From assembly GCA_028713675.1 (NCBI GenBank), contig JAQTNV010000001.1, positions 73,879 through 137,878 on the forward strand: 64,000 bases of DNA, in the 5' to 3' direction. Both the position numbers and the translations under genes were made by a program. Shown here in pieces: positions 3,937 to 41,007 of this stretch. The notes beneath the pieces were generated by a model that made no database searches, was not told the DNA's origin, and saw nothing but the letters and a program-made list of their open reading frames with translations. Position 1 is the first letter of the stretch. Each line of letters begins with the position of its first letter. The stretch comes from a bacterium (GTDB lineage: Bacteria; Desulfobacterota; JAPLJL01).

Positions 3937-3939
3937 TTC

Positions 3940-9633: not shown

Positions 9634-10809
9634 TTACCATTTTAGAAACACTTCCTCCGCGAAGCCCAGGATTTTATCCACCTCGACCCGGCGGCCGTCG
9701 TCGAGCACCACCGAACCGCTGTAATAACCGTAAAGCTTGTGCAGGCGGGCCGACTTGACCAGGGCGTTGGCGCCCACATGCTGGTCGTATATCGGCTCAA
9801 GCGTCATTTCGAAACGGCCGTCGTTGCCCCGGAAATGCCAGGGCTTCATATATTCTTTGGTGTCGTAATCCCAGGTCACCCGGTCGAGCTTGTGGCCGGC
9901 ATTGTCGTAAACCACCAGGTTTTCCGAGGCGGCGCTCATGTCGCCGAATCCGTTCCCGATATTGAAGCCGACGGAAGCGCCATTCACCTTTCCCGAGGCC
10001 GCCCCCCAGCGCCACATTAATTTCCGGGGCCAGGCCCCCCTCCCCCAATCCATTACCGCCCAGGCTTCCCCGGCCGGGAAAGAAATCTTCCGGTCCCCGG
10101 CCTCGACCTCCCCGGACGCCGGCATGTTCACAATCTTATGCTCGTAGAAAAACTCCCGGGGGTCTTCCGGGAAAGGCGTGGCCAGGGCCAGGAAATCCAT
10201 CTTGGGGTCCTGGAGCATCTCGATTCGGCCCCGCATCCGGTCGGTGAACAGGGTTTTGGGGATATCGAAAACAGCGATCCTTTTATCCGCGGTCCGCTCG
10301 TATCTCATCACCTCTTTGCCCCGGTATACGCAGGAAACCCCGCCGGTGCTCGACCGGGTCATTGAGAGTTTCAGGTCCCCCAGCAGGCTGACGACCCCGC
10401 CGGCCCTGGTTTCCCCGCTGGCGAAATCGATGGAATCCACGGTGCAGAAGCGCGCGTAGCCGATATCGGCGATGGTCAGATTCAGCACATAAGCCGAAGA
10501 CAAAACGGTGAAGAACTCCCATTCCCGCTTCTGTCCGGTGCCAAGTTTTATGTTCTCGGGGTTGTAGTTGAGGAGGGGGTGCGGAGACCAGCCGCGCTGG
10601 ATGAGAATCCCCTCATCGTTAAGAAGATCCGAAGGGGTGGTAATCAGGTGCTGTTCGGAGGGGGGCGTGACCGGCTGGGGTGTGGGAGGAAGCTGACCGC
10701 AGGAAATAAGGGAGAAGATGCAAGTGGCGATGAGCAGGGACAAGATGCAAGTGGTTAGATCCAAGTGAACCAAACGACCACCGATCAAATGAATAATTTT
10801 CATTCTCAT
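9634..10809 (-). CDS. lipoprotein, DUF2804-like
   Basis: Signal peptide with an LISCG lipobox. The C-terminal region resembles the DUF2804 family. This family call is from memory. Confidence 0.55.
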   Translation of the reverse strand: MRMKIIHLIGGRLVHLDLTTCILSLLIATCIFSLISCGQLPPTPQPVTPPSEQHLITTPSDLLNDEGILIQRGWSPHPLLNYNPENIKLGTGQKREWEFFTVLSSAYVLNLTIADIGYARFCTVDSIDFASGETRAGGVVSLLGDLKLSMTRSSTGGVSCVYRGKEVMRYERTADKRIAVFDIPKTLFTDRMRGRIEMLQDPKMDFLALATPFPEDPREFFYEHKIVNMPASGEVEAGDRKISFPAGEAWAVMDWGRGAWPRKLMWRWGAASGKVNGASVGFNIGNGFGDMSAASENLVVYDNAGHKLDRVTWDYDTKEYMKPWHFRGNDGRFEMTLEPIYDQHVGANALVKSARLHKLYGYYSGSVVLDDGRRVEVDKILGFAEEVFLKW

Positions 10810-11070
10810 ATCGGATAGCTTATCGGATTCGATTAAAACCGGGTAGAGAGATCTCATTCCCGCCCCGCATCAGAGTGCGGGATAAATTCCAACGGGAATC
10901 CATCTGAAAAATACTGGATTCCCTGGCCGACACGAGAGTTTAGCTCGGGCAGGCCGGCTTTCGCCGGAATGACAAAATTAAAGAACTTTTGATACACTTC
11001 TTTAGTTGATTATTAACTCGAAACTTTAAACTCGAAACTCGAAACCGTTTTTTTTGAAAGGAGCCTGGAA

Positions 11071-11544
11071 ATGTCCCGAGTCGTCATCATCATGGGTTCG
11101 AAAAGCGATCTGAAATGGTCCGAGGAAATCGCCGAGGCCTTGAAAAAGCTGGGCGTGGAATCCATCCTCCGGATCGCCTCCGCCCACAAGGTCCCGCTGA
11201 AATGCTTTGAAATCATAAAAAAATATGAAGACGAGAACGTGGTGTTCATCACCGTGGCCGGGAGGAGCAACGCCCTGAGCGGCTTCACCGACGCCCAGAC
11301 CCACTGCCCGGTGATCGCCTGCCCTCCTTACAGTGAAAAATTCGGGGGCGCCGATATCTGGTCCACCCTGAGAACGCCTTCGGCGGTGGCCCCGATGGTG
11401 GTGCTGGAGCCCGAAAACGCCGCCCTGGCCGCGGCCAAGATCCTGGGCCTGCAGGACAGGATCGTCCGGGAAAAGATCAAGCAATATCAGGCGAAGTCCC
11501 GGGAAACGATAGAGAAAGACGATAAGGAGATACAAAAAAGGTGA
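11071..11544 (+). CDS. purE: N5-carboxyaminoimidazole ribonucleotide mutase
   Basis: VVIIMGSKSD, ASAHK, VAGRSNALSG. A canonical PurE. Confidence 0.92.
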   Translation: MSRVVIIMGSKSDLKWSEEIAEALKKLGVESILRIASAHKVPLKCFEIIKKYEDENVVFITVAGRSNALSGFTDAQTHCPVIACPPYSEKFGGADIWSTLRTPSAVAPMVVLEPENAALAAAKILGLQDRIVREKIKQYQAKSRETIEKDDKEIQKR

Positions 11545-11880
11545 AAGGGTAAAGGGCATAGGGCATAGGGCATAGGGCATGGTGCATGGCGCAGGGAGCA
11601 AAAGGAAAAGACCAAAACGAGATTCTTCCCTCGATCATTCTCGGGACAAGTCGCCAGAGGTTTATACTGAGCGAAGCGAATGTGCTCAGAATGACACCTT
11701 TACAGACCGCCGACGGCCGCCTGCAGAAAAGGCGGGTTATGGGTGATGGGTGATAGGTCATAGGGTTTAAAACCCAACACCCACAACCCAACATTGTCAT
11801 TCTGAGCTAAGCGAAGAATCTCTCTTTTTCTTTCCCGGTATGCTGTCTACTGTCTACCTTTTGCCAAAAATGGACTGATC
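11545..11880. repeat. CATAGGGC array + inverted copy (11618-11695) of the 9147-9234 element + gtcattctgagctaagcgaagaatctc motif
   Basis: Direct reading. Confidence 0.75.
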
Positions 11881-13569
11881 TTGGAAAAGAATTATAAATT
11901 CTGGCCGGAGGGGGTGGAAAAGCATATTGATTACCCCGAGATCCCGGCCTTCGAAATCCTCCGCTCCTCCGCCCGCAAGTGGCCCGAAAGAAACGCCCTC
12001 ATCTTCCAGGGAAAGGAAATCACCTACCGTGAGCTCGATTCCCTCTCGGACCGCTTCGCCGCCGCCCTGGCGAAGCTGGGGGTCGCCAAAGGCCACCGGG
12101 TGGGGATCCATCTGCCCAACTCTCCCCAATTCGCCATCGCCTATTTCGGCATCCTCAAGGCCGGGGCGGTCTTTGTCCCGATCAGCACCATGCTGGCGGA
12201 TAAGGAGCTTTCCTTCCTGCTCCGGGACGCGGGGGTGGAGACTTACATCGGGCTTGACACCACCTGCAACGAAAAACATTACGCCCTTTCCGGCACCCCC
12301 GTGCAAAGGGTCATTCCGGTCAACCTTTCCGGTGAAGCCCCGGCCGCAAAATCCTCCCCGCCGGAAACCCGGGATTTCGCCGCCCTGCTGAAAGACTCCG
12401 ATCCCAATCCGCCCCGAATCGATTTCAATCCCCGGGAGGACCTGGCCCACATCGCCTACACCGGCGGGACCACCGGCACCCCCAAGGGAGCCATGATCAC
12501 CCATTACAACGTCGTGGTGAACACCTGCCAGTATTTCTGCTGGTTTGCCGGCGGGGTCCTGACCTGGCGGAACGGCATCATCGACATTGAAAGGCGGGAA
12601 GGCGACCGCGAGGAAAACCACTGCCTCCTCCCCGGCCGGGAAACAGTCCTGGTGGTTTCCCCCTGGTTTCACGCCATGGGCGTGATCGGCTACGTGAACC
12701 GCCTGCTCGTCCTGGGGGCCACGATCGTCGTGTTCCCCCGCTTCGACCCGGGGGAATTTCTCCGCGCCATTCCCCGGTACCGGCCCACCTTTTTCGGAGG
12801 CGCCCCCGCGCTTTTCATTCCCCTGATCGAGCACCCTCTTTACCGGGAAACGGACATGTCGGGGATCAAAGCGGTGGGGTCAGGGGCCGCGATCCTTTCT
12901 CCGAGCCTGATCTCCGCCCTGGAGGAAAAATTTCCCCGGCGCATTCTCGAAGGATACGGAATGACGGAAGCCACCATGGGCGCGGTCAACAGCCCCCCGA
13001 CCCCGAAAATCTGGAGGCCGGGCTCAGTCGGCCTGCCCATTCCCGACACCGAGATCAAAATCGTCGATCCGGAAAAAGGCGAAACCGAACTCCCGATCGG
13101 GGAGGCCGGCGAGATCTGCATCCGCGGGCCCCAGGTGATGAAAGGATACTTGAACCGTCCCGAGGAAACCGCCCAGGTCCTGCGCTCGGGCTGGCTTTAC
13201 TCCGGCGACATCGGGAGAATGGACGAGGACGGGTTCCTTTACATCGTGGACCGGAAGAAGGACATGCTCATCTACAAGGGATATAACGTCTACCCCCGCG
13301 ACCTGGAGGAGACGCTCAATTCCCATCCGGCCGTGGCGCAATCAGCGGTGGTCGGGAAGAAGGACCCGCGTTCCGGGGAACTGCCCGCGGCTTTTGTCCG
13401 GCTGGCTCCGGGAAAAACCGCCACCGAGCAGGAACTGCTCGAATACGCCAACCAGCGGCTCGCCGCCTATAAAAAAATCCGGATTCTGAAAATTGTCGAT
13501 TCCCTGCCGGTCAGCGCCGCCGGCAAGATCCTGAAAAGAGAACTGAAGAAAATAGTGGAAAGCTGGTAG
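11881..13569 (+). CDS. AMP-dependent acyl-CoA synthetase (long-chain fatty-acid--CoA ligase family)
   Basis: AMP-binding motifs YTGGTTGTPKGA and GYGMTE. TTG start as in the ORF track. Confidence 0.9.
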   Translation: MEKNYKFWPEGVEKHIDYPEIPAFEILRSSARKWPERNALIFQGKEITYRELDSLSDRFAAALAKLGVAKGHRVGIHLPNSPQFAIAYFGILKAGAVFVPISTMLADKELSFLLRDAGVETYIGLDTTCNEKHYALSGTPVQRVIPVNLSGEAPAAKSSPPETRDFAALLKDSDPNPPRIDFNPREDLAHIAYTGGTTGTPKGAMITHYNVVVNTCQYFCWFAGGVLTWRNGIIDIERREGDREENHCLLPGRETVLVVSPWFHAMGVIGYVNRLLVLGATIVVFPRFDPGEFLRAIPRYRPTFFGGAPALFIPLIEHPLYRETDMSGIKAVGSGAAILSPSLISALEEKFPRRILEGYGMTEATMGAVNSPPTPKIWRPGSVGLPIPDTEIKIVDPEKGETELPIGEAGEICIRGPQVMKGYLNRPEETAQVLRSGWLYSGDIGRMDEDGFLYIVDRKKDMLIYKGYNVYPRDLEETLNSHPAVAQSAVVGKKDPRSGELPAAFVRLAPGKTATEQELLEYANQRLAAYKKIRILKIVDSLPVSAAGKILKRELKKIVESW

Positions 13570-13690
13570 AGCGACCGGTCCGACCTGTCCGACCTGTCAG
13601 ACCAGTCGGACACTTCGGACCAGTCCGATTACGCTTTGTTTTTTGCTCTTTGCCCTTCGCCCTATGCCCTATGCTATATGCGCTCCGCGC

Positions 13691-14839
13691 TTACATCAGC
13701 CCCATCATCCGGGCGATGATCTGCTTCATGATCTCGGTCGACCCGGCGGTGATGGTCTGCACCCGCATGTCGCAGTAATAGTGCGCGATCGGATATTCCA
13801 TCATGTAGCCGTAGCCCCCGTGGAGCTGGACGCCGTAATAAGCCACCCGGTTGACGAGCTCGGTGTTATACCACTTGGCCATGGAGACTTCCTTGGTAAT
13901 GTCCTTCCCGTCCAGGTGGTCGTCCACGATCTTGTAGGTGAAGGTCTTGGCCATCTCGATCTCGGTGGCGAATTCAACCAGGCGGAAGGCGTTGGCCTGG
14001 AATTTGCTGATCGGGCGCCCGAAAGCCTCCCGGGTCTTGGCGTAATCGATCGTGAGGTTGAGAATCGTCTCGGCCATGAGAATGGAGCCCAGGCACGCCA
14101 CCAGCCTTTCCTGCTGGAGATTTTCCATCAGGATATAGAAGCCCTTCCCTTCCTCCCCCAGGAGATTGCTCACCGGCACCCGGCAGTCCTCGAAACTCAA
14201 TTCGGCGGTGTCGGCGGCGGTAACGCCCATCTTTTCCAGCCTCCGGCCCTTGGTGAAACCGGGGGTGCCGTCCTCCACCAGGATCAGGCTGATCCCGGTG
14301 TGGGGTGGCTTGGCCTTGGGATCGGTCTTGACCGCCACGATCACCAGGTTGCACTTGATCCCGTTAGAGATAAAGGTCTTCTGGCCGTTGATCACGTACT
14401 CGTCGCCTTTCCGGACCGCGGTGGTGCGGATGGCGGCCAGGTCCGACCCCGCGCCCGGCTCGGTCATGGCGATCGCCACAATGCAGTCGCCCTTGCAGGC
14501 GGCCGGCAGGTATTTCAGCTTCTGCGCTTCGGTCCCCTTCCGGGCCAGGTAGGGCATGGCGATGTCGTTATGAACGCTCATCCCGAGGCCCAGGTCCCGC
14601 GAGGTTTTCGAGTATTCCTCGTGAAGGACCACCGAGTAACTGAAGTCCAGCCCGGAACCGCCGTATTTCGGATCCACCCAGTAGCCGATGAAGCCCTGGT
14701 CTCCCAGCTTCTTCCAGATTTCCCGGGGGATGTCATGTTTTTCCTTCCACTCGTACATGTGCGGGGTCACCTCGTTGGCGAGAAACTTCCGGAGCGAGGC
14801 GCGGAAAAGCTCATGCTCTTCGGTGAATTTCAGCGGCAT
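13691..14839 (-). CDS. acyl-CoA dehydrogenase
   Basis: 382 aa with ACAD N-, middle and C-domain motifs (IAMTEPGAGSD, YGGYGY). Confidence 0.9.
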   Translation of the reverse strand: MPLKFTEEHELFRASLRKFLANEVTPHMYEWKEKHDIPREIWKKLGDQGFIGYWVDPKYGGSGLDFSYSVVLHEEYSKTSRDLGLGMSVHNDIAMPYLARKGTEAQKLKYLPAACKGDCIVAIAMTEPGAGSDLAAIRTTAVRKGDEYVINGQKTFISNGIKCNLVIVAVKTDPKAKPPHTGISLILVEDGTPGFTKGRRLEKMGVTAADTAELSFEDCRVPVSNLLGEEGKGFYILMENLQQERLVACLGSILMAETILNLTIDYAKTREAFGRPISKFQANAFRLVEFATEIEMAKTFTYKIVDDHLDGKDITKEVSMAKWYNTELVNRVAYYGVQLHGGYGYMMEYPIAHYYCDMRVQTITAGSTEIMKQIIARMMGLM

Positions 14840-15528
14840 CTTTTTATCCTCCTGGTTTTGTCTGTCTCGTCTATCTGGTCTATCTAGTCTATCTAGTCTA
14901 TCTAGTCTATCTGGTTTGTTTGGTTTGTCTGGTTTTCATTCGTCAATCGTCAATTCCTGTTGACCTTTCACCTGATTTAATGGGATTTATTATTTAATTT
15001 AACCCGCTGGAATTGTCAAATTGGAAAAGGGTAGACGGCATACGGTAGACGGCAGACCGGGCAAACATTTAAGGTGATGGGTGAATTAGCAAAGTGCATA
15101 GGGCATAGAGCATAGAGCATAGGGCATAGCGTTAAGAATGTTTTGCTGGTTCATATGGTTTCTCTGGTTCATCTGGTCTATCTCGTCTATCTAGTCTGTC
15201 TCGTTCATCTCAATCGCATAGGGCATGGAGCATAGGGCAGAGGGCAGAGAACAAAGAACATAAAGTTAAAAACGTTCGTCTGGTTCATCTGGTTTCCGAG
15301 CTCTGCGAGCCCGACGAAGCCCCGAAGTCCGCTGAAGCGAAGCGGAAGCTAACCGGGCGAAGTCTGGGATGGTTTCTCTAACCACCTAATCACCCAGCCA
15401 CCTATCCACCTAACCACCTAACCACCTAGCCACCTAACCACCTAACCACCTAGCCACCTAACCACCACGCAACCTTAAGGTTGCGGCTACCGCTCAACGT
15501 CTGCAGGGGTGGACAGGGAGAAATAGAA
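14840..15528. repeat. repeat block; its 15040-15480 part is the left arm of a long imperfect inverted repeat (CTAGATAGAC, CATAGGGC, CCACCTAA arrays, gcaaccttaaggttgc palindrome)
   Basis: Its reverse complement is found at 18540-18860. Confidence 0.8.
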
Positions 15529-16017
15529 ATGGTAAAAAATAACGACAAATTAAACTCGACTAACACGAGAAAGCCGATGAATCTCAAAAATCCATTGTCC
15601 GCTTCGGAATTACTGGAGAGATTCCGGAAAAAGCTGGAAAAGGATGTCGCCAAAATCGGCGTGCATCCCGACCAGCCCCAATTCTGGAAAAGATATTCCC
15701 TGGGAAAAATCGAGGGACTGGACACCTCCCATGAAATCTATCTCCGGGTGGCCACCCTGCAGGAATGGGGCCTTCCCTCGGAACTGATCTGCGTGAAAGG
15801 ATGGGTTTACACCCCCACCGCCAAGATTTACGAGAAATTCAAAAAACTCGGCTATGAATTGATCAGCCTTCATCCCAAAGCCAAGACACCCCTCCTGTTC
15901 AAAACCACCCCGGGGGAGGTGCATCTCTCCGTCCTGGGACTGGAAAGGCGCATGCGAGAAGATCATTTTACCCCTCCCGGCCAGGACGAGTGGTTCCTCC
16001 CCCCCGATAAGTCATAA
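15529..16017 (+). CDS. hypothetical protein (162 aa)
   Basis: ATG with a GGAG RBS. The track start at 15481 lies inside the repeat. No recognisable family. Confidence 0.5.
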   Translation: MVKNNDKLNSTNTRKPMNLKNPLSASELLERFRKKLEKDVAKIGVHPDQPQFWKRYSLGKIEGLDTSHEIYLRVATLQEWGLPSELICVKGWVYTPTAKIYEKFKKLGYELISLHPKAKTPLLFKTTPGEVHLSVLGLERRMREDHFTPPGQDEWFLPPDKS

Positions 16018-16193
16018 CGCGATCAGCCCCAGGAACGTTTGCAGGGTTAGCATCGTTAGTAGCGTTAGTAGCGTTAATAGCGCTAATAGCGTTAGTAGCG
16101 TTAATATCAAAACAGCGTTAGTTTCCGGTCGATTTAAACGGTCCCAACGGTACTAACGGTCCTAACGGTCTTAACGTTATTCAGCGAGGATAA
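16018..16193. repeat. TAGCGTTAG / CTAACGGTC arrays, mutually reverse-complementary (long hairpin potential) in the 5' region of the fusion gene
   Basis: Direct reading. Confidence 0.6.
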
Positions 16194-18524
16194 ATGGACA
16201 AGACAGAAATCATCGATTTTCTGAAAAATCAGGTGCCGCTTTTCCAGGGCTTCCCGGAAGCCCGCCTGCGGGAGCTGGTCGAGGGCTCACGCCTGACCCA
16301 CTATGCGGCCAACGAGGCGGCCATCCGGTTCGGCGAGGAGGGACGGTTCCTGGGCGTCATCCTCGAAGGGGAATCCGAGGTTTCCGTCACCGATGACAGC
16401 GGGGAAAAGCACCGGATCGGCCTCCTGAAAAAGGGGGACATCTTCGGCGAAATGTCGCTCATGACCGGGGACAAAACCATGGCCGACGTCATCGGGATCA
16501 CCTCCGGCCGGGCCCTGCTGATCCCCTCGAGCCTCTTCTCGACCATCCTGATCACGCACCCCCCGGCGGTTAAATACCTTTCGAAAACCATTTCCGAGCG
16601 CATCAAGCAGTCCGCCCGGGAAAACGCCGGCCGGGACCTGGCCGCCTCGGCATTCCGCGCCAGCGACGATCCCTACGGCTTCAAGCTCAAGAGCGAGGAG
16701 CCGCTGAAGGCCCTGGTGATAAACTGCGGATCCTCCTCCCTGAAATACAACCTTTTCGATACCGGAAACGAGAAGGCGAATGCCCGCGGGATGATCGAAA
16801 AAATCGGGGAAGAAGGCACCCGCCACACCTACCGCTCGGCCCGGGGGGAAATCTCACAAACCCTCCCGAATGGCGGTCACGCGGAGGCCTTCGCGGCCAT
16901 GATGTCGGCCCTGCGGGACCCGGACCGCGGGGTGATCGGCTCCCCGGATGAAATCGCCGCGGTGGGTCACCGGGTCGCGCACGGCGGGGATATCTTCCCG
17001 AACTCAACCATTATCACCGATAAGGTAATCAAGGAAATCCAAAACCTTTCCCGGCTGGCCCCCCTCCACAACCCGGTCAACCTGGTCGGAATCAGGGAGG
17101 CCCAGCGTCTTTTTCCCCGGGCCGCCCAGGTCGCGGTTTTCGACACCTCTTTTCACCAGACCCTGCCCGCCTACGCCTATCTCTACGGTCTGCCTTACGA
17201 GTATTACAAAAAGAACCGGATCCGCCGCTACGGTTTCCACGGGATGTCCCACGCCTACGTCGCCCTGAAGGCCGCGGAGCATCTCAAGCGGCGCTTCAAC
17301 GAGCTCGAGATCGTCACCTGCCACCTCGGGAACGGGGCCTCGATCTGCGCCGTCGACCACGGCCGCTCCATCGACACCTCCATGGGGCTGACCCCCACCG
17401 AGGGGCTGATCATGGGAACCCGCTCCGGCAACCTCGACCCCTCCGTGGTCACCCACCTGATCCGGACCGAGGGACTGGACCCGGACGCCATGGACCGCAT
17501 CCTGAACCGGGAAAGCGGACTGAAGGGAATCTCCGGCATCTCCAACGACATGCGGGACATCGAGAAAAACGCCCAGGAGGGCAACCAGCGCGCCCTCCTG
17601 GCCTTCAAGACCTTCTGCTACCAGGTCCGGAAATACATCGGGGCCTACGTGGCGGCGATGGGGGGGCTCGACGCCCTGGTCTTCACCGGCGGCATCGGCC
17701 AGGGCAGCGCGGGGGTGCGGAGCCTGGCCTGCCAGGGCCTGGGCTACATGGGCATCCAGATCGAGGAAAAGAAGAACCAGGAAGCCCGGGGCGCGGAGAC
17801 TGTCATCGACATCTCCGTCCCGGAAGCGCCGGTCCGGGTCCTGGTCATTCCCACCGACGAGGAGCGGATGATCGCCCGGGAAACCATCCGCACCCTGGGC
17901 CAGCGCCACGTGACCAGGATCATCAGCACCCAGAAAGACACTCCCATCCCCCTGGAGATCTCCGCCCACCACGTCCATCTCTGCCAGGCGCATGTCGAAG
18001 CCCTGTTCGGACCCGGGCACCAGCTCACCGCGGACAAGGATCTTTCCGAGCCCGGCCAGTTTTCCTGCAAGGAAACGGTCAACCTGGTCGGGCCCAAGGG
18101 CCGGGTGGAGCGGGTCCGTGTCCTCGGACCGACCCGGAAGGAAACCCAGATCGAAATTTCTATGACGGAGCAATTCAAACTCGGGATCCATCCCCCCATC
18201 CGGGAGTCCGGGGACATCGAGAACAGCCCGGGCATAACCCTGGAAGGCGCGGCCGGCACCCTGACCTTAAGCAAGGGGGTGATCTGCGCCATGCGCCATA
18301 CGCACATGTCGCCGGAGCACGCCCTGCTTTTCGGCCTCCGCGACCGCGACCGGGTCATGGTCAGGGTCAAGGGGGAGCGGGAACTGATTTTCGGGGACGT
18401 GCTGATCCGGGTCACCCCGGGGTTCAACCTGACCATGCATATCGATACCGACGAGGGAAACGCCGCCAACGTCAAGACCGGGGACCTGGGCTACATTGAG
18501 GCGATTCAGAATAGAGAACAGTAG
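16194..18524 (+). CDS. tri-domain fusion: cNMP-binding regulatory domain + acetate/propionate kinase (AckA) + PduL-type phosphate acyltransferase
   Basis: Residues 1-140 are a Crp-like cNMP-binding fold (GDIFGEMSL). The middle has ASKHA kinase motifs (LVINCGSSSLKY, HRVAHGG, HLGNGASICAV). The C-terminal ~200 aa carries two PduL repeats (ISAHHVHLCQAHVEALFG and ICAMRHTHMSPEHALLFG). Confidence 0.82.
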   Translation: MDKTEIIDFLKNQVPLFQGFPEARLRELVEGSRLTHYAANEAAIRFGEEGRFLGVILEGESEVSVTDDSGEKHRIGLLKKGDIFGEMSLMTGDKTMADVIGITSGRALLIPSSLFSTILITHPPAVKYLSKTISERIKQSARENAGRDLAASAFRASDDPYGFKLKSEEPLKALVINCGSSSLKYNLFDTGNEKANARGMIEKIGEEGTRHTYRSARGEISQTLPNGGHAEAFAAMMSALRDPDRGVIGSPDEIAAVGHRVAHGGDIFPNSTIITDKVIKEIQNLSRLAPLHNPVNLVGIREAQRLFPRAAQVAVFDTSFHQTLPAYAYLYGLPYEYYKKNRIRRYGFHGMSHAYVALKAAEHLKRRFNELEIVTCHLGNGASICAVDHGRSIDTSMGLTPTEGLIMGTRSGNLDPSVVTHLIRTEGLDPDAMDRILNRESGLKGISGISNDMRDIEKNAQEGNQRALLAFKTFCYQVRKYIGAYVAAMGGLDALVFTGGIGQGSAGVRSLACQGLGYMGIQIEEKKNQEARGAETVIDISVPEAPVRVLVIPTDEERMIARETIRTLGQRHVTRIISTQKDTPIPLEISAHHVHLCQAHVEALFGPGHQLTADKDLSEPGQFSCKETVNLVGPKGRVERVRVLGPTRKETQIEISMTEQFKLGIHPPIRESGDIENSPGITLEGAAGTLTLSKGVICAMRHTHMSPEHALLFGLRDRDRVMVRVKGERELIFGDVLIRVTPGFNLTMHIDTDEGNAANVKTGDLGYIEAIQNREQ

Positions 18525-18937
18525 GCAGCAAAGGGCATAGGGCATAGAGCAAAGCGGTAGCCGCAACCTTAAGGTTGCGTGGTGGTTGGGTGGTTGGGTG
18601 GTTAGGTAGTTGGGTGGTTAGAGAAACCATCCCAGACTTCGCCCGGTTAGCTTCCGGTTAGCTTCCGCTTCGCTTCAGCGGACTTCGGGGCTTCGTCGGG
18701 CTCGCAGAGCTCGGAAACCAGATGAACTAGATGAACTAGATAGACGAGATAGACGAGATAGACCAGATAGACCAGGTAAATCAGAGAAACCAGATAGACG
18801 ATTAACGATAAGCAGCTCAAATTAAATGTTTGCCCGGCCTACCGTCTACCCTAAAATTTTCTTGACTTGAAATGAATTACGGTGTTATAAAATAGCACCG
18901 ATCATTTTTATATGGCGGCCGAAAGCAAACTTTAAAA
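18525..18937. repeat. right arm of long inverted repeat (reverse complement of 15040-15480)
   Basis: Sequence comparison. Arrays differ in copy number and a ggttagcttcc unit is duplicated. Confidence 0.8.
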
Positions 18938-19435
18938 ATGCATTCCCATCTCCCGATCGTAATAATTTCCATTGTTTTCGCGGCCCTGGTTTCAACCGGC
19001 ATCGCCAGCGTATTTTTTCATCGTTTCAAGCGGGAGATATCAAAGGCCAGCCCCAAGCCGAACCATAACAATTCCAACCACCTGGACGACAAAATCTGCG
19101 AATTAAGGCTCTCCAGTTATCCTCGGGCGTTTGAAATCACCGACCCGCTGGGAAGCCAGTACCTTTTCAAAAATAAAATTTCCACCGGCTCGATCAAACA
19201 GATCCGGGAAAACCTGATCGAGTGGAACAAAGCGCTGGCCGGCTTCGTCCTTTCGGAAAAATCATTGAAAGCCTTTTACAAGCTGCGCGAGGCGCTGGAT
19301 CTGAATTCCGGCCACAATCATTTCTTGAGCCAGGAACGGCTGGAGAGAATCTGGAAGGCCAAAAGCCATTTCCGGGCCTGCCTGCGGGAGGATGTCAACC
19401 TCGCTTCGGAAGAGGACGAACAGGCCGTTTTCTAA
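18938..19435 (+). CDS. hypothetical membrane-anchored protein (165 aa)
   Basis: N-terminal TM helix. No family recognised. Confidence 0.45.
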   Translation: MHSHLPIVIISIVFAALVSTGIASVFFHRFKREISKASPKPNHNNSNHLDDKICELRLSSYPRAFEITDPLGSQYLFKNKISTGSIKQIRENLIEWNKALAGFVLSEKSLKAFYKLREALDLNSGHNHFLSQERLERIWKAKSHFRACLREDVNLASEEDEQAVF

Positions 19436-20758: not shown

Positions 20759-23700
20759 ATGTCAGACCGTAATCCTCATTTTCTCACCCCGGAGCCAGTC
20801 TCCGAACCCCCCGGACCGGCCCGTAGTACTCTGGGCATTCCCCTGATCATCTTCCTGATTTGCTGCGCCCTCGGCATCACGGCCGCCGGATTGTGGTTCT
20901 ACCACAACCAAAAAATACACCTGGAGCAATCAGCCGAAGACAACCTGGCGGCCGTCGCCGACCTGAAAGTCAACCAGATCGCCGCCTGGCGGCAAGAGCG
21001 GCTGGGCGACGCCAATGTGATTTCTCCCAATCCCATCATCCGCTATCGAATCAAGCCGTTTCTGGAAAAGGCCTCCCGGCAGGACCGGGGCGAGGACATC
21101 CGGTCCTGGATGGATTCGTTTCGGACCGGATACAAGTATCAGAATGTAATTTTATTCGACCGCCGGGGAAAGGTCCGGCTGTCGGTCGGCCCGGCCGAAC
21201 CGGACATCGATACCCAGGATCGGATCGAGATCACCGCCGCGGTCCATTCGGGAAAGCCGTTCTTGTCGGATTTTCACCGCTCGCAGAAGACGGGGCATGT
21301 AGAGCTGGATCTCTATGTTCCCCTCCTCTGGAGATCCAAAGTCTCCGCCGCTCCGACTAACGTCGGCTTAATGCTCCTGGAGATTAATCCCGAAGAATTC
21401 CTATATCCCTTGATCCAGTCCTGGCCCACCCCCAGTCCGACGGCGGAAACCCTCCTGGTGCGCCGCGAAGGGGAAGAAGTTCTCTATCTGAACGAGTTGC
21501 GCAGCCAAAAAGACTCCGCCTTGAATCTGCGCTCTCCCCTCACCAATCGGGACCGGCCTGCGGTCATGGCGGTGCTCGGGAAGGAAGGGATAATTCAGGG
21601 AATAGATTACCGCGGTGTCCCGGTCCTGGCCGCACTCCGGAAGATTCCCGAGTCACCATGGTTTATCGTCTCCAAGCAGGACCAGGAAGAGGTCGTCGCC
21701 CCGTTCCGTTTCCGGGCCCTGGCGATCCTTTCCCTTACCGGAGTGGTAATCCTGGCCCTGGGACTCGCGGCCCTGTTCTGGTGGAAACGGAGGGAGGCCG
21801 GGTTATTCCGCCGGCAATACAAGCTGGAGGCCGAGCGCGCTCAGGCGGAGGCGGCGCGGCGCGCGGAGGAAGAACGTTATCGCCGCACCCTCAACAACAT
21901 GCTGGAGGGCTGCGAGATCATCGGGTTCGATTGGCGCTATCTCTATGTCAACGACTCAGCCGCCCGGCAGGTCCGCCAGGCCCCGGAGGATCTGCTCGGC
22001 TTTACCATGATGGAGAAATATCCCGGGTTTGAAAACACGGAAATGTTCACCGTCTTCAAGCGCTGTCTGGAAGAGCACTCCTCCAACTTTACGGAGGTCA
22101 AATCCGTCTTTCCCGACGGATCCGTCGGCTGGCTGGAACTGAGCATCCAGCCGGTGCCCGAGGGGATCTTCATTATTTCTCTCGACATCACCGCGCGGAA
22201 ACTCGCGGAGGAGGAGTTGAAAAGGTACCGGGACCAACTCGAGGAACTGGTCCGGGCCCGCACGGCGGAAATCACGAAAATCAACCGGGAGCTGGAGTTG
22301 GAAATCGTCGAGCGGAAAAAGGCCGAGAAAGAACTCTCGCTTTCCAACGAAATTCTGGAAATCATCTTCGCCAACACCCACCTGGAAATCGCCTACCTGG
22401 ATGCGGATTTCAATTTCATCCGGGTGAACCCCGCCTACGCCCGGTCCAGCGGGAAACCCCCGGGGTATTTTCTGGGCCGGAATCATTTCGATTTTTATCC
22501 CCATTCCGAAAACAAAAAGCTATTCCGCCAGGTAGTCGAAACCGGACTGCCCCTGACCGTTTCCGCCCAGCCCTTCGAGTTTCCCGACCAGCCCGAACGC
22601 GGGCTGACTTACTGGGACTGGACCCTCAACCCGATCAAGAACACCGCGGGAAAAGTCGAGGCGGTCATCCTCTACCTCATGGAGGTAACCAATTTCAAGC
22701 GGGCCGAAGAACAAAACCGCAAATTGATCACCCGGGCCGCCGCCCTCTCCGAAATCTACCGGATGGTGGCCGAGGCCGGGCTGGACTCCGACGCGGTCCT
22801 GGGTATGGTAGCCCGTCTCTCCTGCGCCCTGATCGGGGACGCCTGCGTGCTCACCCTGATATCCGATGACGGCAAATGGCTGCATCCGGCGGCCGTTCAT
22901 CACCGGAATCTGGAAAGGATCGAATTCCTGCGCCAGGTTGTCGCCAGCGGTCTCGTCCGGATCGGGGAGGGAACGGCCGGACGGGTCGCCCAGACCGGTC
23001 AGGCTCTCCTGCTCCCGGTGGTGCCGCCGGAAGAGTTCCGCGCCTCCCTGAAACCGGAATATCTGCCCTACCAGGACCGGCTGGGCGTTTTCAGCCTTCT
23101 GATCGTACCGCTCCGGGCCCAGGGCAAAGTCATCGGCACCCTGGGCCTGTCCAAGGACCTGCCCGGGCACCCCTTCACCGAAGATGACCGGGCCCTGCTT
23201 CAGGATCTGGCTGACCGCTCGGCTCTGGCCATCGACAACGCCCGCCTGTACAAATCCGCGCAACAGGAACTGGTCGAACGGAAGCAGGCGGAGGAGGCGG
23301 TCAGGCGGGCGGTCGTCTATAACCGCAGTCTGATCGAGGCCAGTCTGGATCCCCTCGTAACCATCGGGCCGGACGGCCGGATTACCGACGTAAACCGCGC
23401 CACGGAAACCTTCACCGGTCGCTCCCGGGAAGAACTGATCGGCACGGACTTCGCCGATTATTTCACCGAGCCGGAGCAAGCACGGGCCGGCTATCAGCAA
23501 GTGTTCCGGGAGGGTTTCGTCCATGACTATCCGCTTGATCTCAAGCACCGGAACGGGCGCGTCACCTCGGTGCTCTACAATGCGTCCGTCTATCGGGACG
23601 AGTCGGGCCGGATCATCGGCGTATTCGCCGCCGCGCGCGACATCTCCGAACGCAAGCGGGCGGAAGAGGCGGTGAGGCGGGCGGTCGTCTATAACCGCAG

Positions 23701-39114: not shown

Positions 39115-41007
39115 TCAGCCCTCTTCCGGAAACTCCTGCTTCAGCACAGTGATGCCTTCCGAATCTTCCACAACCTGAAACCCCATTTTTTTAAAAACCC
39201 AGAGCATGTTGCCGTTTCTCATCAGGACCTCCGCCTGAAATCCGCGCAATCCCCGTTTCCGCGCCAGGCTCCGCAGGCAGGCCACCAGCTCGGTCCCGAT
39301 CCCCTGGTTCTGGAATTTATCCCTCACGGTCACCGATATTTCCGCGTAATCCGATCCCGGCTTCGTATTGTATTGACCCAGGCCGACGATCTGTTCGTTT
39401 TCCCCTGCTTCGATCACGGCCAGGATCAACATGTCCTGGTGATAATCAACCGAGAGAAATTCCTTCAGCCGGGTCAGGGGCATGTCCCTGCGGACCGAGG
39501 CGAAGCGCAGATAGAGGCTCTGATCGGAAAGCGAGTAGAAGAAGTCCCGGACCAGCGATTCGTCGCTGATCTTCACCGGCCGGAGAAAAACCTTGAACCC
39601 GGTCTTGGTAGTCCGCAACGCCTCCAATTCCCTCGGGTATTCCTCCCCGATCTTTTCCGCCTCGAAGGAATGGTCCTCGCTCACCAGCTTCAGGACGATC
39701 GCCCGCCGGATCAGCTGCCGGCGGAACCGGGGATGGGCGATCGTGATCATCTCCAGGGCCCGCTCCCGGATGCTTTTGCCCTGGAGCGAGGCGGTCCCGT
39801 ACTCGGTGACCACGTAGTGGATGTCCGCGCGGTTCAGGGTGGCCCCCACCCCGCCCTTGAAGAGGGGCACGATCCGGGACACGTTTCCGCCTTTGCCGGT
39901 GGAAGGCATGACGATGATCGTCCGCCCGTTGACGGAAAGGGACGTCCCGCGGATGAAATCCACCTGTCCGTCGATCCCGCTGTAGCGCGGCCCGCGCACG
40001 GCTTCCGAAGTCGCCTGCCCGGTCAGGTCGATTTCGAGCACCGTGTTGATCGCCACCATCCGGTCCTGCCGGGCGATCATCACCGGGTTGTTGGTGTAAT
40101 CGATGGCCCGGAGCTCGACCGCCGGGTTCCGGTCGATGAACTCGTAGGTGTCTTTCCTCCCCATGCAATAAGCGGCCACGGTCTTGCCCTGATCGAAGGC
40201 TTTTTTCGAATTGTCCACCGCCCCGGCCCGGATGAGATCGACCAGGCCGTCGGTCAGAAGCTCGGTATGCACGCCCAGGTTGTGCTTGTTTTTCAGGTGG
40301 GAAAGAACCGCGTTCGGCAATCTGCCGTAGCCCACCTGGAGGGTGTCCCCGTCCCGAACCAGCTTGGCCACCTGCTCCCCGATCTTATTGAGGACATCAA
40401 CGCCGATCTCCTCGCCCCGGAGGATCTCGCCGTACTCGAGAATGGGCTCATCATGGGGGACGATAAAATCCACTTCATCCAGGGAAATAATGGCGTCCCC
40501 CCCGGAGAACGGCATCCGGGAATTCACCTGGGCGACCACGATGGCGGCCTTCTCCACCGCCGCGCGGACGATGTCCACGCTCACGCCCAGGCTCAGGCGC
40601 CCCTCTTCGTCAGGAGGCGAGGTCTGGATCAGGGCCACGTCCACCGGCACGTATCCCCGGCGGATAAAATCCGGCACCCGGTAGAGAAAGGTGGGAATGT
40701 AATCGGTCAGGCCGGCATTGACGAGAGCCTGGGTATTACCGCCGACAAAGAAGGAGTCTATTTTGAAGTTGGGCCCGAGGCCCTCGAGGTCGGGGACGGA
40801 TTTGGCCGGGAAGACCTGAAAGACGGAGGCGTCAAAAAAAGCCTTGGGGTGGGCCTGGGCATAGGCGACGATCGCGTGGACCAGGTGGCGGGGCTCCCCG
40901 CAGCCGGTCCCGATAAAGATCTTCCGCCCCGACCGGATCCGCCGGAAGACCTCGTCCGGGGTGGCGCATTTCTTGGCGTAGAGCTTTTGCATTTCCTGGG
41001 AAAACAC
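39115..41007 (-). CDS. acetyl-CoA hydrolase/transferase family protein fused to C-terminal GNAT acetyltransferase
   Basis: N-terminal ~440 aa are the Ach1/Cat1-type CoA-transferase fold. C-terminal ~170 aa have the GNAT motif (QNQGIGTELV). Confidence 0.82.
   Translation of the reverse strand: MFSQEMQKLYAKKCATPDEVFRRIRSGRKIFIGTGCGEPRHLVHAIVAYAQAHPKAFFDASVFQVFPAKSVPDLEGLGPNFKIDSFFVGGNTQALVNAGLTDYIPTFLYRVPDFIRRGYVPVDVALIQTSPPDEEGRLSLGVSVDIVRAAVEKAAIVVAQVNSRMPFSGGDAIISLDEVDFIVPHDEPILEYGEILRGEEIGVDVLNKIGEQVAKLVRDGDTLQVGYGRLPNAVLSHLKNKHNLGVHTELLTDGLVDLIRAGAVDNSKKAFDQGKTVAAYCMGRKDTYEFIDRNPAVELRAIDYTNNPVMIARQDRMVAINTVLEIDLTGQATSEAVRGPRYSGIDGQVDFIRGTSLSVNGRTIIVMPSTGKGGNVSRIVPLFKGGVGATLNRADIHYVVTEYGTASLQGKSIRERALEMITIAHPRFRRQLIRRAIVLKLVSEDHSFEAEKIGEEYPRELEALRTTKTGFKVFLRPVKISDESLVRDFFYSLSDQSLYLRFASVRRDMPLTRLKEFLSVDYHQDMLILAVIEAGENEQIVGLGQYNTKPGSDYAEISVTVRDKFQNQGIGTELVACLRSLARKRGLRGFQAEVLMRNGNMLWVFKKMGFQVVEDSEGITVLKQEFPEEG

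What the first reader, a model, noticed from the sequence alone, without database searches (positions are those of the whole stretch)
16194..18524. Single polypeptide fusing a cNMP-binding domain to acetate kinase and a PduL-type phosphotransacylase
Phosphotransacylase and acetate kinase together interconvert acyl-CoA and acid + ATP. They are normally two separate proteins (Pta or PduL, and AckA). Here both catalytic modules sit in one 776-aa chain behind a Crp-like cyclic-nucleotide-binding domain. That would put substrate-level phosphorylation under direct cNMP control. I do not know this domain order as a described architecture. An acetyl-CoA hydrolase/transferase-GNAT fusion at 39115..41007 in the same window suggests unusual acyl-CoA/acetate wiring.
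Basis: partly seen in the sequence, partly recalled or inferred. Interest (0 to 1): 0.75.

Follow-up and report, generated by a model that had tools for sequence, protein, structure and literature searches.

The report
Sensor-fused acetate kinase–PduL phosphotransacylase enzyme
One real, widely conserved gene joins the two enzymes that turn acyl-CoA into acid plus ATP behind a cyclic-nucleotide-type sensor domain, but that sensor lacks the arginine that normally grips cAMP/cGMP, so what it senses is unknown.

Summary
ORF 16194..18524 (+) encodes 776 aa with three Pfam domains above curated thresholds: cNMP_binding, Acetate_kinase and PTAC/PduL. It is not an assembly artefact. At least 115 database clusters of about 775 aa from several phyla share the architecture, and the window protein is identical to NCBI MDD5222422.1, named "acetate/propionate family kinase". 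All Ack catalytic residues and all PduL zinc ligands are conserved. There is no encapsulation peptide and no microcompartment or other conserved neighbour.

The Ack–PduL fusion was already noted in print in 2016. "Direct cNMP control" is doubtful, because the arginine that contacts the cyclic phosphate is Thr/Ser/Ala/Asn in 120 of 120 family members. Trypanosome PKA carries the same Arg→Thr change and binds nucleosides, not cAMP.

The sensor is nevertheless well conserved (57% mean pairwise identity). It is attached through an invariant DPYG…L motif, and all sensor-bearing kinases form one clade.

Best reading: a stand-alone, probably channelling, acyl-CoA ⇄ acid + ATP enzyme, allosterically gated by an unidentified ligand. 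Interest is moderate: a new variant of a known kind.

The parts
16194..18524 (+). Complete ORF, 776 aa plus stop: sensor - acetate/propionate kinase - PduL-type phosphotransacylase
   Evidence: ORF list; three Pfam domains; exact match to NCBI MDD5222422.1; start position shared with homologs in alignment A1.
16186..16190 (+). Shine-Dalgarno-like GAGGA, 3 nt upstream of the ATG
   Evidence: Read directly from the sequence; the consensus scan found no promoter match immediately upstream.
16194..16661 (+). N-terminal cyclic-nucleotide-binding-fold (CNB) sensor domain, residues 1-156: N-terminal helices, 8-strand beta-barrel and the alphaB/alphaC helices
   Evidence: PF00027 at 52.1 bits. Best PDB sequence matches are PKG CNB domains, E 2.8e-16. 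AF2 secondary structure, with pLDDT about 70-90 over residues 1-140. Nearest folds are PKG and trypanosome PKAR. Mean pairwise identity in the family is 57.5%.
16443..16490 (+). Non-canonical phosphate-binding-cassette equivalent, residues 84-99 (FGEMSLMTGDKTMADV). The Gly-Glu pair is kept; the canonical Arg-Ser/Thr pair is replaced by Thr95-Met96; Lys94 lies one position earlier
   Evidence: Gapless HMMER alignment to PKG CNB-B, FGEKALQGEDVRTANVIA. Divergent members read GEPTSADV against the canonical GxPRSATV. Column counts for the Arg position are T103/S12/A3/N1, and for K94 K71/R38/Q7/L2.
16665..16703 (+). Invariant junction motif DDPYGFKLKSEEP, residues 158-170. It is an N-terminal extension of this Ack subfamily, onto which the sensor is grafted
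   Evidence: D159 120/120, P160 120/120, Y161 119/120, G162 117/120, L165 120/120. The motif is also present at the N-terminus of a sensor-less AckA, L009: MDSNEMLNRVTTDDPYGFKLKSETP.... pLDDT is about 81 in the deep model.
16704..17891 (+). Acetate/propionate kinase (ASKHA) domain, residues 171-566, with a complete catalytic set. The acyl-pocket residue equivalent to Val93 is Ala262
   Evidence: PF00871 E 2.2e-146. PDB sequence matches 2iir and 1g99/1tuu, E 1e-121 to 1e-126. Model against 1g99/1tuy: TM 0.95, rmsd 1.9 A. Residue map, M. thermophila number = window residue: N7=N177, S10=S180, S12=S182, K14=K184, R91=R260, H123=H292, D148=D317, H180=H349, N211=N380, R241=R410, E384=E556; each is kept in at least 114 of 120 members. 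The V93 position is V113/A6/L1, and the window protein has Ala.
17892..17951 (+). Variable linker between the Ack and PduL domains, residues 567-586
   Evidence: Lowest conservation in the protein, 40% mean pairwise identity. Predicted helical at 556-579. A 49-nt deletion and frameshift in relative L003 begins at the end of this linker and removes IPLEISAHHVHLCQAHV from the start of PduL.
17952..18503 (+). PduL-type phosphotransacylase domain, residues 587-770, with both Zn sites intact and no encapsulation peptide
   Evidence: PF06130 E 2.5e-74. PDB 5cuo, E 7e-50. Model against 5cuo: TM 0.96, rmsd 1.0 A. Residue map, R. palustris number = window residue: H48=H593, H50=H595, E109=E654, H157=H702, H159=H704, H204=H749, R103=R648, S127=S672, S45=S590, R97=R642, N211=N756. 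The residue list comes from PMC4784909, and each is kept in at least 119 of 120 members.

Best explanation
The gene encodes a genuine, widely distributed three-domain enzyme.

Shown:
- It contains a complete acetate/propionate kinase module and a complete PduL-type dimetal phosphotransacylase module, so the chain has everything needed for acyl-CoA + Pi + ADP <-> acid + CoA + ATP.
- It is a cytosolic stand-alone unit that is not associated with a microcompartment, and its gene neighbourhood is not conserved.
- The N-terminal domain has the cyclic-nucleotide-binding fold and is under purifying selection.
- That domain is joined to the kinase through an invariant DPYG..L junction that belongs to the kinase subfamily.
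- All sensor-bearing kinases form a single clade in a rough tree.

Inferred:
- The acyl-phosphate intermediate is handed directly between the two active sites, which would give channelling and protect a labile, reactive intermediate. In these organisms the fusion would replace a separate Pta.
- The N-terminal domain acts as an allosteric ligand sensor. Ligand-induced movement of its C-terminal helices would be transmitted through the rigid junction to kinase domain I, modulating domain closure or the dimer, and so gating flux through substrate-level phosphorylation or acetate activation.
- Because the cyclic-phosphate-binding arginine is absent family-wide, the ligand is more likely a non-canonical one (a nucleoside, a non-cyclic nucleotide or another metabolite) than cAMP or cGMP bound in the classical way.
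- Ala262, at the position of Val93, suggests that this protein and its closest relatives also accept propionyl substrates.
For: - Domains and thresholds.
- Catalytic residues: all conserved in the window protein and in at least 114 of 120 relatives.
- Structural agreement of each domain with solved enzymes: Ack TM 0.95 and PduL TM 0.96.
- Confidence of the full-length model: pTM 0.80.
- Distribution: at least 115 clusters in Kiritimatiellae, Verrucomicrobiota, Acidobacteriota/Aminicenantes, Spirochaetales, Thermodesulfobacteriota and others.
- Gene context: different in six lineages, with no BMC shell genes.
- Prior literature: Erbilgin et al. 2016 noted the Ack-PduL fusion, the absence of an encapsulation peptide, and proposed channelling.
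- Sensor conservation: 57.5% mean pairwise identity, against 67% for Ack and 72.5% for PduL, with an invariant junction motif.
- The sensor travels with these enzymes: sensor-Ack without PduL (L005, L008, P0151) and sensor-PduL without Ack (P0146, from three independent assemblies). In the exhaustive search, every hit that covers both sensor and junction is an Ack/PduL protein.
- Single clade of sensor-bearing kinases.
- Non-canonical cassette.
- Precedent for Arg->Thr giving nucleoside rather than cAMP binding: PMC10959531. Trypanosome PKAR is among the nearest structural neighbours of the sensor.
Against: - No biochemical data exist for any member. Channelling, regulation and ligand identity are all inferences.
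- The cassette keeps the Gly-Glu pair (E86 in 119 of 120) that binds the ribose 2'-OH. It also has Lys or Arg one position before the missing Arg in 109 of 120 members, and it lacks the Glu that sterically excludes the phosphate in trypanosome PKAR (Ser88 here). A cyclic nucleotide bound in a shifted register is therefore not excluded.
- The best sequence matches of the sensor are bona fide cGMP-binding PKG domains.
- The tool returns no coordinates or PAE for the AF2 model, so the distance between the two active sites and the sensor-kinase interface could not be examined. Residues 141-160 have low confidence.
- The Ack-domain tree is a quick neighbour-joining tree without support values.
Confidence: 0.6

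Rival explanations
1. One reading: the N-terminal domain is a true cAMP/cGMP receptor, so substrate-level phosphorylation by the Ack-PduL module is switched directly by a cyclic-nucleotide second messenger.
For: PF00027 scores above its threshold. The top PDB sequence matches are cGMP-binding PKG domains, E 2.8e-16. The Gly-Glu pair of the cassette is conserved, and a Lys or Arg sits immediately before the lost Arg in 109 of 120 members. The phosphate-excluding Glu of trypanosome PKAR is absent. cAMP control of acetate metabolism has a precedent in the mycobacterial CNB-GNAT acetyltransferase Pat, whose NCBIfam model weakly matches the N-terminus (NF058543, 21.4 bits).
Against: The Arg that neutralises and hydrogen-bonds the cyclic phosphate is absent in 120 of 120 members. 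It is also absent in divergent branches, where the neighbouring Lys/Arg is itself replaced by Pro (GEPTSADV). In trypanosome PKAR, restoring this Arg is required for any cyclic-nucleotide response. No cyclase gene is linked to the gene in the window or in five other lineages.
Confidence: 0.25
2. The CNB-fold domain no longer binds any diffusible ligand. It serves as a structural or oligomerisation module, or is 'self-liganded' by part of its own chain, as in the cyclic-nucleotide-binding-homology domains of KCNH channels (recalled from memory).
For: The cassette Arg is lost family-wide. An invariant aromatic-containing motif (DPYGF.L) directly follows the C-terminal helices. Some divergent branches keep the sensor while the Ack motifs degenerate (P0126, P0139, P0200), which is consistent with a scaffold role.
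Against: The cassette itself is among the most conserved stretches (G85, E86, M90, T91, G92 and A97 each in at least 118 of 120), which argues for a maintained pocket. The DPYGFKLK motif also occurs in a kinase with no sensor at all (L009), so it is a kinase element and not an intrinsic ligand that evolved for the sensor.
Confidence: 0.13
3. The ORF is an artefactual fusion of adjacent genes caused by an assembly or sequencing error, or it is a microcompartment-associated PduL/Ack pair.
For: One close relative (L003, 90% identity) has a frame break at the Ack/PduL junction. PduL is best known from bacterial microcompartments.
Against: At least 115 independent clusters from NCBI, JGI, ENA and Logan have the same uninterrupted chain of about 775 aa. 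The L003 break is a 49-nt deletion that removes the catalytic His-x-His motif, so it is a lesion and not a clean gene boundary. L001 and the window are intact. There is no encapsulation peptide, since PduL follows the kinase directly, and no shell-protein genes occur in the window or in five other contexts.
Confidence: 0.02

Closest known systems
Ack-PduL fusion proteins noted by Erbilgin et al. 2016 (PLoS Biol 14:e1002399; PMC4784909)
   Same: PduL (PF06130) lies in the same chain as an acetate kinase and lacks an encapsulation peptide. The authors proposed that it replaces Pta and channels the intermediate. Sensor-less two-domain examples were found here: L004, L006, L007, L010-L015 and L069.
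   Different: The paper mentions the fusion in two sentences, without the N-terminal sensor and without experiments. In the rough Ack-domain tree the sensor-less fusions fall outside the clade of the sensor-bearing family, so they may be independent fusions.
Classical Pta-AckA pathway (separate phosphotransacetylase and acetate kinase), and the PduL + PduW pair of propanediol microcompartments
   Same: The same two reactions and the same kinase family. The window protein's kinase domain is 45-49% identical to solved AckA/PduW structures, with TM 0.90-0.95. The PduL domain has the same dimetal chemistry as R. palustris PduL.
   Different: Here both activities are in one polypeptide. The transacylase is the PduL type, which is not homologous to Pta. 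The protein is not encapsulated, and it carries a sensor domain.
Class II (enterobacterial) Pta with an N-terminal regulatory domain (recalled from memory; not tested here)
   Same: The concept is the same: the Pta-Ack node is placed under allosteric control by an N-terminal domain that binds metabolites.
   Different: The regulatory domain is unrelated (not a CNB fold), it is attached to a Pta-type and not a PduL-type transacylase, and no kinase is fused.
Mycobacterial cAMP-regulated protein acetyltransferase Pat (CNB-GNAT fusion)
   Same: A CNB-fold sensor fused directly to an enzyme of acetyl-CoA/acetate metabolism. Its NCBIfam model weakly matches residues 16-135.
   Different: From memory, Pat has a canonical cassette and binds cAMP. 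Its catalytic partner is a GNAT acetyltransferase acting on acetyl-CoA synthetase. The match is far below its cut-off (21.4 bits against 460).
Trypanosomatid PKA regulatory subunit (cAMP-independent, nucleoside-binding CNB domains; PMC10959531)
   Same: A CNB fold in which the cyclic-phosphate Arg is replaced by a polar residue (Thr318 in site A; Thr95 here), followed by a hydrophobic or beta-branched residue. It is among the nearest structural neighbours of the sensor (6h4g, 6hyi).
   Different: The kinetoplastid cassette also has a Glu (E311/E435) that binds the ribose hydroxyls and clashes with a phosphate; here that position is Ser88. Sequence identity is only about 25%, and the output domain is entirely different.

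Membership tests
Acetate/propionate kinase family (Pfam PF00871; NCBIfam TIGR00016) | Full-length match above the curated cut-off | tested here: met
   PF00871 scores 488 bits against 22, covering model positions 1-392 of 392. TIGR00016 scores 484.8 bits against 293.4.
Acetate/propionate kinase family (Pfam PF00871; NCBIfam TIGR00016) | Catalytic and ligand-binding residues (M. thermophila N7, R91, H123, D148, H180, N211, R241, E384) | tested here: met
   They map to N177, R260, H292, D317, H349, N380, R410 and E556, all present and conserved in at least 114 of 120 relatives.
Acetate/propionate kinase family (Pfam PF00871; NCBIfam TIGR00016) | Assignment to a substrate-specific equivalog (acetate versus propionate kinase) | tested here: inconclusive
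   All equivalog models score below their cut-offs: NF009063 460.7 against 659, NF009045 (propionate kinase) 429.6 against 580, NF005520 363.1 against 561. The pocket residue Val93 is Ala262 here, which from memory is the state in the propionate kinase TdcD; the PDB holds TdcD 'A88V' mutant entries.
PduL-type phosphotransacylase (Pfam PF06130; NCBIfam NF011652) | Full-length match above the curated cut-off | tested here: met
   PF06130 scores 249.3 bits against 25, covering model positions 2-176 of 176. NF011652 scores 254.9 bits against 209.
PduL-type phosphotransacylase (Pfam PF06130; NCBIfam NF011652) | Two Zn sites (His48, His50, Glu109; His157, His159, His204) and the phosphate-positioning Arg103 and Ser127 | tested here: met
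   They map to H593, H595, E654; H702, H704, H749; and R648, S672. Each is kept in at least 119 of 120 relatives.
Microcompartment (BMC)-associated PduL | N-terminal encapsulation peptide and a locus with shell-protein genes | tested here: not met
   The PduL domain follows the kinase directly through a 20-residue linker. No shell genes occur among the ORFs of at least 200 aa scanned across the first ~52 kb of the window, nor in five homolog contexts.
Cyclic-nucleotide-binding domain (Pfam PF00027) | Match above the curated cut-off, and the CNB fold | tested here: met
   52.1 bits against 27.5. PDB matches to PKG CNB domains, E 2.8e-16. The predicted beta-barrel with cassette helix and C-terminal helices has PKG and PKAR as its nearest folds.
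Functional cAMP/cGMP receptors within the CNB superfamily | Phosphate-binding cassette with the Gly-Glu pair and the invariant Arg that contacts the cyclic phosphate | tested here: not met
   The Gly-Glu pair is present (G85, E86). The Arg position is Thr95 in the window protein and T103/S12/A3/N1 in the family, with Arg in 0 of 120.
Functional cAMP/cGMP receptors within the CNB superfamily | Demonstrated binding of a cyclic nucleotide | not testable with these tools
   This needs ITC, DSF or a structure of residues 1-170 with candidate ligands.
Crp/FNR transcription factors | C-terminal helix-turn-helix DNA-binding domain after the CNB domain | tested here: not met
   There is no HTH domain; the CNB domain is followed by the kinase. 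The CRP equivalog model scores 29.5 bits against 266.

The most novel reading that the evidence does not exclude
The N-terminal domain defines a bacterial class of CNB-fold sensors that have given up cyclic nucleotides (Arg->Thr family-wide). They would instead read a non-cyclic ligand such as a purine nucleoside, an adenylate reporting energy charge, or a CoA- or acyl-phosphate-related metabolite. The ligand would gate a single-polypeptide, channelled acyl-CoA -> ATP machine that serves as the Pta-Ack pathway of many uncultivated anaerobic phyla. Trypanosome PKA was reported as the first cyclic-nucleotide-independent PKA (PMC10959531), so this would be an independent example of ligand switching in a CNB domain, and a direct metabolite switch on substrate-level phosphorylation.
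Probability: 0.35. Interest if true: 0.75.

Novelty: new variant of a known kind. Interest (0 to 1): 0.5.

Why it matters
The Pta-Ack node is the main route of substrate-level phosphorylation, and of acetate activation, in anaerobes.

If this family is the working Pta-Ack pathway in Acidobacteriota/Aminicenantes, Kiritimatiellae/Verrucomicrobiota, Spirochaetota, Thermodesulfobacteriota and related sediment lineages, two things follow. First, metabolic reconstructions that search for a classical pta gene will wrongly score the pathway as incomplete. Second, acetate and ATP flux in these organisms would be under a post-translational ligand switch that nobody has characterised.

The altered cassette makes the ligand question sharp and cheap to test: one soluble 170-residue domain, a small ligand panel, and one T95R mutant. 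The fused enzyme is also a compact candidate part for ATP-regenerating or acyl-CoA-consuming modules in synthetic biology.

If the sensor turns out to bind cAMP after all, the result is a tidy but unsurprising new cAMP effector.

Tried and rejected
- **Assembly-artefact hypothesis: rejected.** At least 115 independent full-length clusters exist, plus an exact NCBI record. The frame break in relative L003 is a 49-nt deletion that destroys the active site, not a gene boundary.
- **Microcompartment association: rejected.** There is no encapsulation peptide and no shell genes.
- **Conserved operon partner or linked cyclase: none found** in six contexts.
- **Literature: nothing beyond one passing remark.** Six searches for any description of a CNB domain with Ack and/or PduL returned only the remark on the Ack-PduL fusion.
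- **First AF2 run: unusable.** With the 18-sequence alignment it gave pLDDT 67.5 and pTM 0.52, too poor to use. It was repeated with 115 sequences.
- **AFDB50 fold search: not available.** It was meant to find named organisms with the same full-length fold.
- **Word-index homolog search with the N-terminal 170 aa: uninformative.** It returned only 15 fragments, so it gives no estimate of family size.
- **Junction motif DPYGF.L as an 'intrinsic ligand' of the sensor: made unlikely.** The motif is also present in a sensor-less kinase.
- **Inverted repeats around the gene as a gene-specific regulatory or mobile structure: not supported.** The arms share segments with other intergenic regions of the window and are absent from the syntenic locus in L003, so they are copies of a dispersed repeat family.
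- **One translation (L020) was taken in the wrong frame and discarded**.
Full report
**1. Observation**

The window contains an uninterrupted ORF at 16194..18524 on the + strand, encoding 776 aa. A GAGGA motif lies 3 nt upstream of the ATG.

| Library | Model | Residues | Score | Cut-off |
|---|---|---|---|---|
| Pfam | cNMP_binding PF00027 | 35-119 | 52.1 bits, E 6.4e-14 | 27.5 |
| Pfam | Acetate_kinase PF00871 | 172-562 | 488 bits, E 2.2e-146, whole model | 22 |
| Pfam | PTAC/PduL PF06130 | 587-761 | 249.3 bits, E 2.5e-74, whole model | 25 |
| NCBIfam | TIGR00016 ackA | 172-566 | 484.8 bits | 293.4 |
| NCBIfam | NF011652 phosphate propanoyltransferase | 585-767 | 254.9 bits | 209 |

**2. A real gene, not an artefact**

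A search of 5.8 billion clustered proteins returned 120 best clusters that are 62-90% identical and about 775 aa long. Of these, 119 carry all three Pfam domains, and the exception is a 702-aa protein missing its N-terminus. They come from NCBI, JGI, ENA and Logan assemblies. Those with taxon labels include Kiritimatiellae, Verrucomicrobiota, Acidobacteriota/Aminicenantes, Spirochaetales and Thermodesulfobacteriota.

The window protein is identical to NCBI MDD5222422.1, 'MAG: acetate/propionate family kinase [bacterium]', on a 267 kb contig. The closest genome-collection relatives are Lake Pavin sediment MAGs labelled 'Proteobacteria': L001 at 94% and L003 at 90%.

L003 shows a frame change at the Ack/PduL junction. 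DNA alignment shows a 49-nt deletion that removes IPLEISAHHVHLCQAHV, including two zinc ligands. That is a lesion or assembly error in one MAG, not a natural split. L001 and the window are intact.

**3. Catalytic competence**

HMMER alignments to M. thermophila acetate kinase (1g99/1tuu) and R. palustris PduL (5cuo) are near full length.
- Ack residues, M. thermophila number = window residue: N7=N177, S10=S180, S12=S182, K14=K184, R91=R260, H123=H292, D148=D317, H180=H349, N211=N380, R241=R410, E384=E556.
- PduL zinc ligands and phosphate or CoA contacts, as listed in the structure paper (PMC4784909): H48=H593, H50=H595, E109=E654, H157=H702, H159=H704, H204=H749, R103=R648, S127=S672, S45=S590, R97=R642, N211=N756.
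- In a MAFFT alignment of the window protein with 119 full-length relatives, each of these is conserved in at least 114 of 120 sequences, and most in at least 118 of 120.

An AlphaFold2 model built on 115 sequences has mean pLDDT 83.6 and pTM 0.80.
- Its Ack part superposes on 1g99/1tuy with TM 0.95 and rmsd 1.9 A.
- Its PduL part superposes on 5cuo with TM 0.96 and rmsd 1.0 A.
- No PDB chain covers more than one of the three domains, so the fusion has no solved structure.

One detail is specific to this lineage. The acyl-pocket residue equivalent to Val93 is Ala262 in the window protein and in 5 other members, and Val in 113. [quoted passage not shown] A larger pocket, and hence use of propionyl substrates, is therefore plausible. 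This is an inference; the NCBIfam equivalog models do not decide it.

**4. The sensor domain**

The N-terminal 156 residues have the CNB fold. The best PDB sequence matches are PKG CNB domains at E 2.8e-16. The predicted secondary structure is a beta-barrel with a short cassette helix and two C-terminal helices. The nearest structural neighbours are PKG and trypanosome PKA regulatory subunits.

The phosphate-binding cassette is not canonical.
- HMMER aligns it without gaps to PKG CNB-B: FGEKALQGEDVRTANVIA against FGEMSLMTGDKTMADVIG. This places Thr95-Met96 where the cyclic-phosphate-binding Arg-Thr pair should be.
- Divergent family members read GEPTSADV, which aligns unambiguously with the canonical bacterial GxPRSATV with Arg replaced by Thr.
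- Across 120 members the Arg position is T103/S12/A3/N1 and never Arg. The Gly-Glu pair is kept (E86 in 119 of 120), and M90, T91, G92 and A97 are nearly invariant. The residue before the lost Arg is K71/R38/Q7/L2.

The same Arg->Thr replacement occurs in site A (Thr318) of trypanosome PKAR. That protein binds inosine, guanosine and adenosine instead of cAMP, and restoring the Arg is required for any cyclic-nucleotide response (PMC10959531). The present family lacks the additional Glu that excludes the phosphate there; Ser88 occupies that position. A cyclic nucleotide bound in an altered register, perhaps using Lys94, is therefore not excluded.

'Direct cNMP control' is consequently an open possibility, which I put at about 0.25, and not something that follows from the domain name.

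**5. How the sensor is coupled**

- The sensor is conserved: 57.5% mean pairwise identity, against 67% for Ack, 72.5% for PduL and 40% for the Ack-PduL linker.
- The best-conserved non-catalytic stretch is the junction D159-P160-Y161-G162-x-x-L165, at 117-120 of 120 per position. It is predicted with pLDDT of about 81.
- The motif also starts a sensor-less AckA in a Fibrobacter succinogenes MAG (L009, MDSNEMLNRVTTDDPYGFKLKSETP...). It is therefore an N-terminal element of this kinase subfamily onto which the sensor was grafted.
- An exhaustive HMMER search of 1.84 billion representatives with residues 1-170 found that every hit covering both sensor and junction is the N-terminus of an Ack and/or PduL protein.

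Architectural variants exist:

| Architecture | Examples |
|---|---|
| Sensor-Ack without PduL | L005, L008 (Fibrobacterota), P0151; the next gene in L005 is lptD, not pduL |
| Sensor-PduL without Ack | P0146, three members from independent assemblies |
| Ack-PduL without sensor | L004, L006, L007, L010-L015, L069 |
| Three domains with degenerate kinase motifs | P0126, P0139, P0200 |

In a quick neighbour-joining tree of the kinase domain, all sensor-bearing kinases plus L009 form one clade. The sensor-less Ack-PduL fusions lie elsewhere, mixed with plain kinases. This suggests a single sensor-kinase union and possibly independent PduL fusions. The tree has no support values.

**6. Context**

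In the window the gene is flanked by 176-nt and 413-nt intergenic regions.
- Upstream lie an AMP-forming acyl-CoA synthetase, an acyl-CoA dehydrogenase and a 178-aa ORF with no Pfam match.
- Downstream lie a 165-aa ORF with no Pfam match, an SDR, a 1793-aa PAS/GAF sensor kinase and a sigma-54 response regulator.
- The order acyl-CoA dehydrogenase / 178-aa ORF / fusion gene is shared with L003.

In five more distant lineages the neighbours are all different: aldehyde:ferredoxin oxidoreductase, serine dehydratase, glycogen phosphorylase, a zinc alcohol dehydrogenase, and unrelated genes. No shell-protein genes, stand-alone pta or ackA, or nucleotide cyclases were found among the larger ORFs of the window. 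The gene therefore behaves as a self-contained module.

**7. Mechanism proposed**

Shown: a complete PduL transacylase and a complete acetate/propionate kinase in one chain, behind a conserved CNB-fold domain.

Inferred:
- The enzyme interconverts acyl-CoA + Pi + ADP and acid + CoA + ATP, and hands the acyl phosphate directly between its active sites. Erbilgin et al. suggested this for Ack-PduL fusions.
- The sensor binds a small ligand, and movement of its C-terminal helices is transmitted through the rigid DPYG junction to kinase domain I, altering domain closure or the dimer.
- The ligand is unknown. Given the missing Arg, I favour a non-canonical ligand over classical cAMP/cGMP binding.

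Rivals are classical cNMP control (0.25), a ligand-free structural or oligomerisation module (0.13), and an artefact or microcompartment association (0.02).

**8. Comparison with what is known**

The protein is a member of the acetate/propionate kinase family and of the PduL family; both pass thresholds and residue tests. It is not a BMC-type PduL and not a Crp/FNR regulator. It has the CNB fold but fails the defining cassette-Arg test for cyclic-nucleotide receptors.

The Ack-PduL fusion was noted in print in 2016. I found no paper that mentions the sensor. Functionally analogous but non-homologous arrangements are the enterobacterial class II Pta with its N-terminal regulatory domain (from memory) and the mycobacterial CNB-GNAT acetyltransferase Pat, which gives a weak NCBIfam match.

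**9.

The ORF at 39115..41007 is on the minus strand. It does combine the AcetylCoA_hydro N- and C-terminal domains with a GNAT domain. At least 120 clusters from bacteria and archaea share this architecture, and NCBI names it 'bifunctional acetyl-CoA hydrolase/transferase family protein/GNAT family N-acetyltransferase'. It is ordinary, it is 20 kb away, and it is not evidence of special wiring.

**10. Verdict**

The window protein is one member of a large family that is already deposited but uncharacterised. The catalytic fusion is known in outline. The sensor with its altered cassette is the undescribed and testable part. Novelty: a new variant of a known kind. Interest: 0.5.

Noticed in passing
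window 15041-15494 and 18553-18853: A long imperfect inverted repeat brackets the 3.06-kb segment that holds the 178-aa ORF and the three-domain gene. It includes an 83-nt stretch that is 98% complementary (15274-15356 against 18654-18736) and a 156-nt stretch at 86.5%. The arms share pieces with other intergenic regions (4201-4447, 1491-1559, 11538-11593, 13634-13677) and are absent from the syntenic locus in L003. They therefore look like two oppositely oriented copies of a dispersed repeat element, not a gene-specific structure.
   Followed up: partly
window 1-19000 and 37826-37885; L003 1317-1601, 6500-6535, 7705-7739: Almost every intergenic region in the first 19 kb carries arrays of 7-, 8- or 9-bp tandem repeats, for example TAACCTA x8 at 41-98, AAACCAGAC x10 at 4301-4389, CTAACCAC x11 at 15378-15466 and GTTAGTAGC x6 at 16046-16103. 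Some units (GTCCATAGT, AACTCGA) recur in the related MAG locus L003, so this is a trait of the lineage. From memory it resembles the short tandemly repeated heptamers of cyanobacteria.
   Followed up: partly
L003 3955-4070 (relative at 90% identity): A 49-nt deletion at the Ack/PduL junction removes IPLEISAHHVHLCQAHV, including the Zn1 ligands, and shifts the frame. In that MAG the gene is either a pseudogene or mis-assembled.
   Followed up: yes
window 39115-41007 (minus strand): The acetyl-CoA hydrolase/transferase (N- and C-terminal domains) + GNAT fusion is real. It is also widespread in bacteria and archaea (at least 120 clusters), and NCBI already names it a bifunctional protein.
   Followed up: yes
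P0146 (364 aa), P0151 (570 aa), L005 7695-9707, L008: The same sensor subtype occurs fused to PduL alone (P0146, from three independent assemblies) and to Ack alone (Fibrobacterota). The sensor therefore accompanies either half of the pathway.
   Followed up: partly
P0126, P0139, P0200, P0201 (divergent family members): Some three-domain relatives have degenerate kinase motifs, for example LLIFKSTESSLHF in place of LVINCGSSSLKY and GHIIQFGG in place of GHRVVHGG. P0200 has also lost a PduL zinc-ligand His. These may be pseudo-enzyme branches that keep the sensor.
   Followed up: partly
L009 287-400 (Fibrobacter succinogenes MAG): A sensor-less AckA begins with the DDPYGFKLKSETP motif that forms the sensor-kinase junction in the fusion family. 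In the tree it groups with the sensor-bearing kinases, which suggests secondary loss of the sensor.
   Followed up: partly
L069 and L075 (same MAG, JAGVLW01): One alphaproteobacterial MAG carries both a sensor-less Ack-PduL fusion and a plain AckA, so the fusion does not always replace the stand-alone kinase.
   Followed up: no
window 23275-24024: A 372-bp tandem duplication at 92% identity lies inside the 1793-aa PAS/GAF hybrid sensor kinase gene (20759-26140). It duplicates a PAS-containing segment of the protein.
   Followed up: no
window 46000-64000: GC content drops from 0.52-0.63 to 0.38-0.49 after about 46 kb. This part holds large tandem repeats: a period of about 150 bp inside ORF 59160-60965, and apparently non-coding repeats with a 213-bp period at 61697-62810 and 63465-63923. 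It may be an island or a compositionally distinct region.
   Followed up: no
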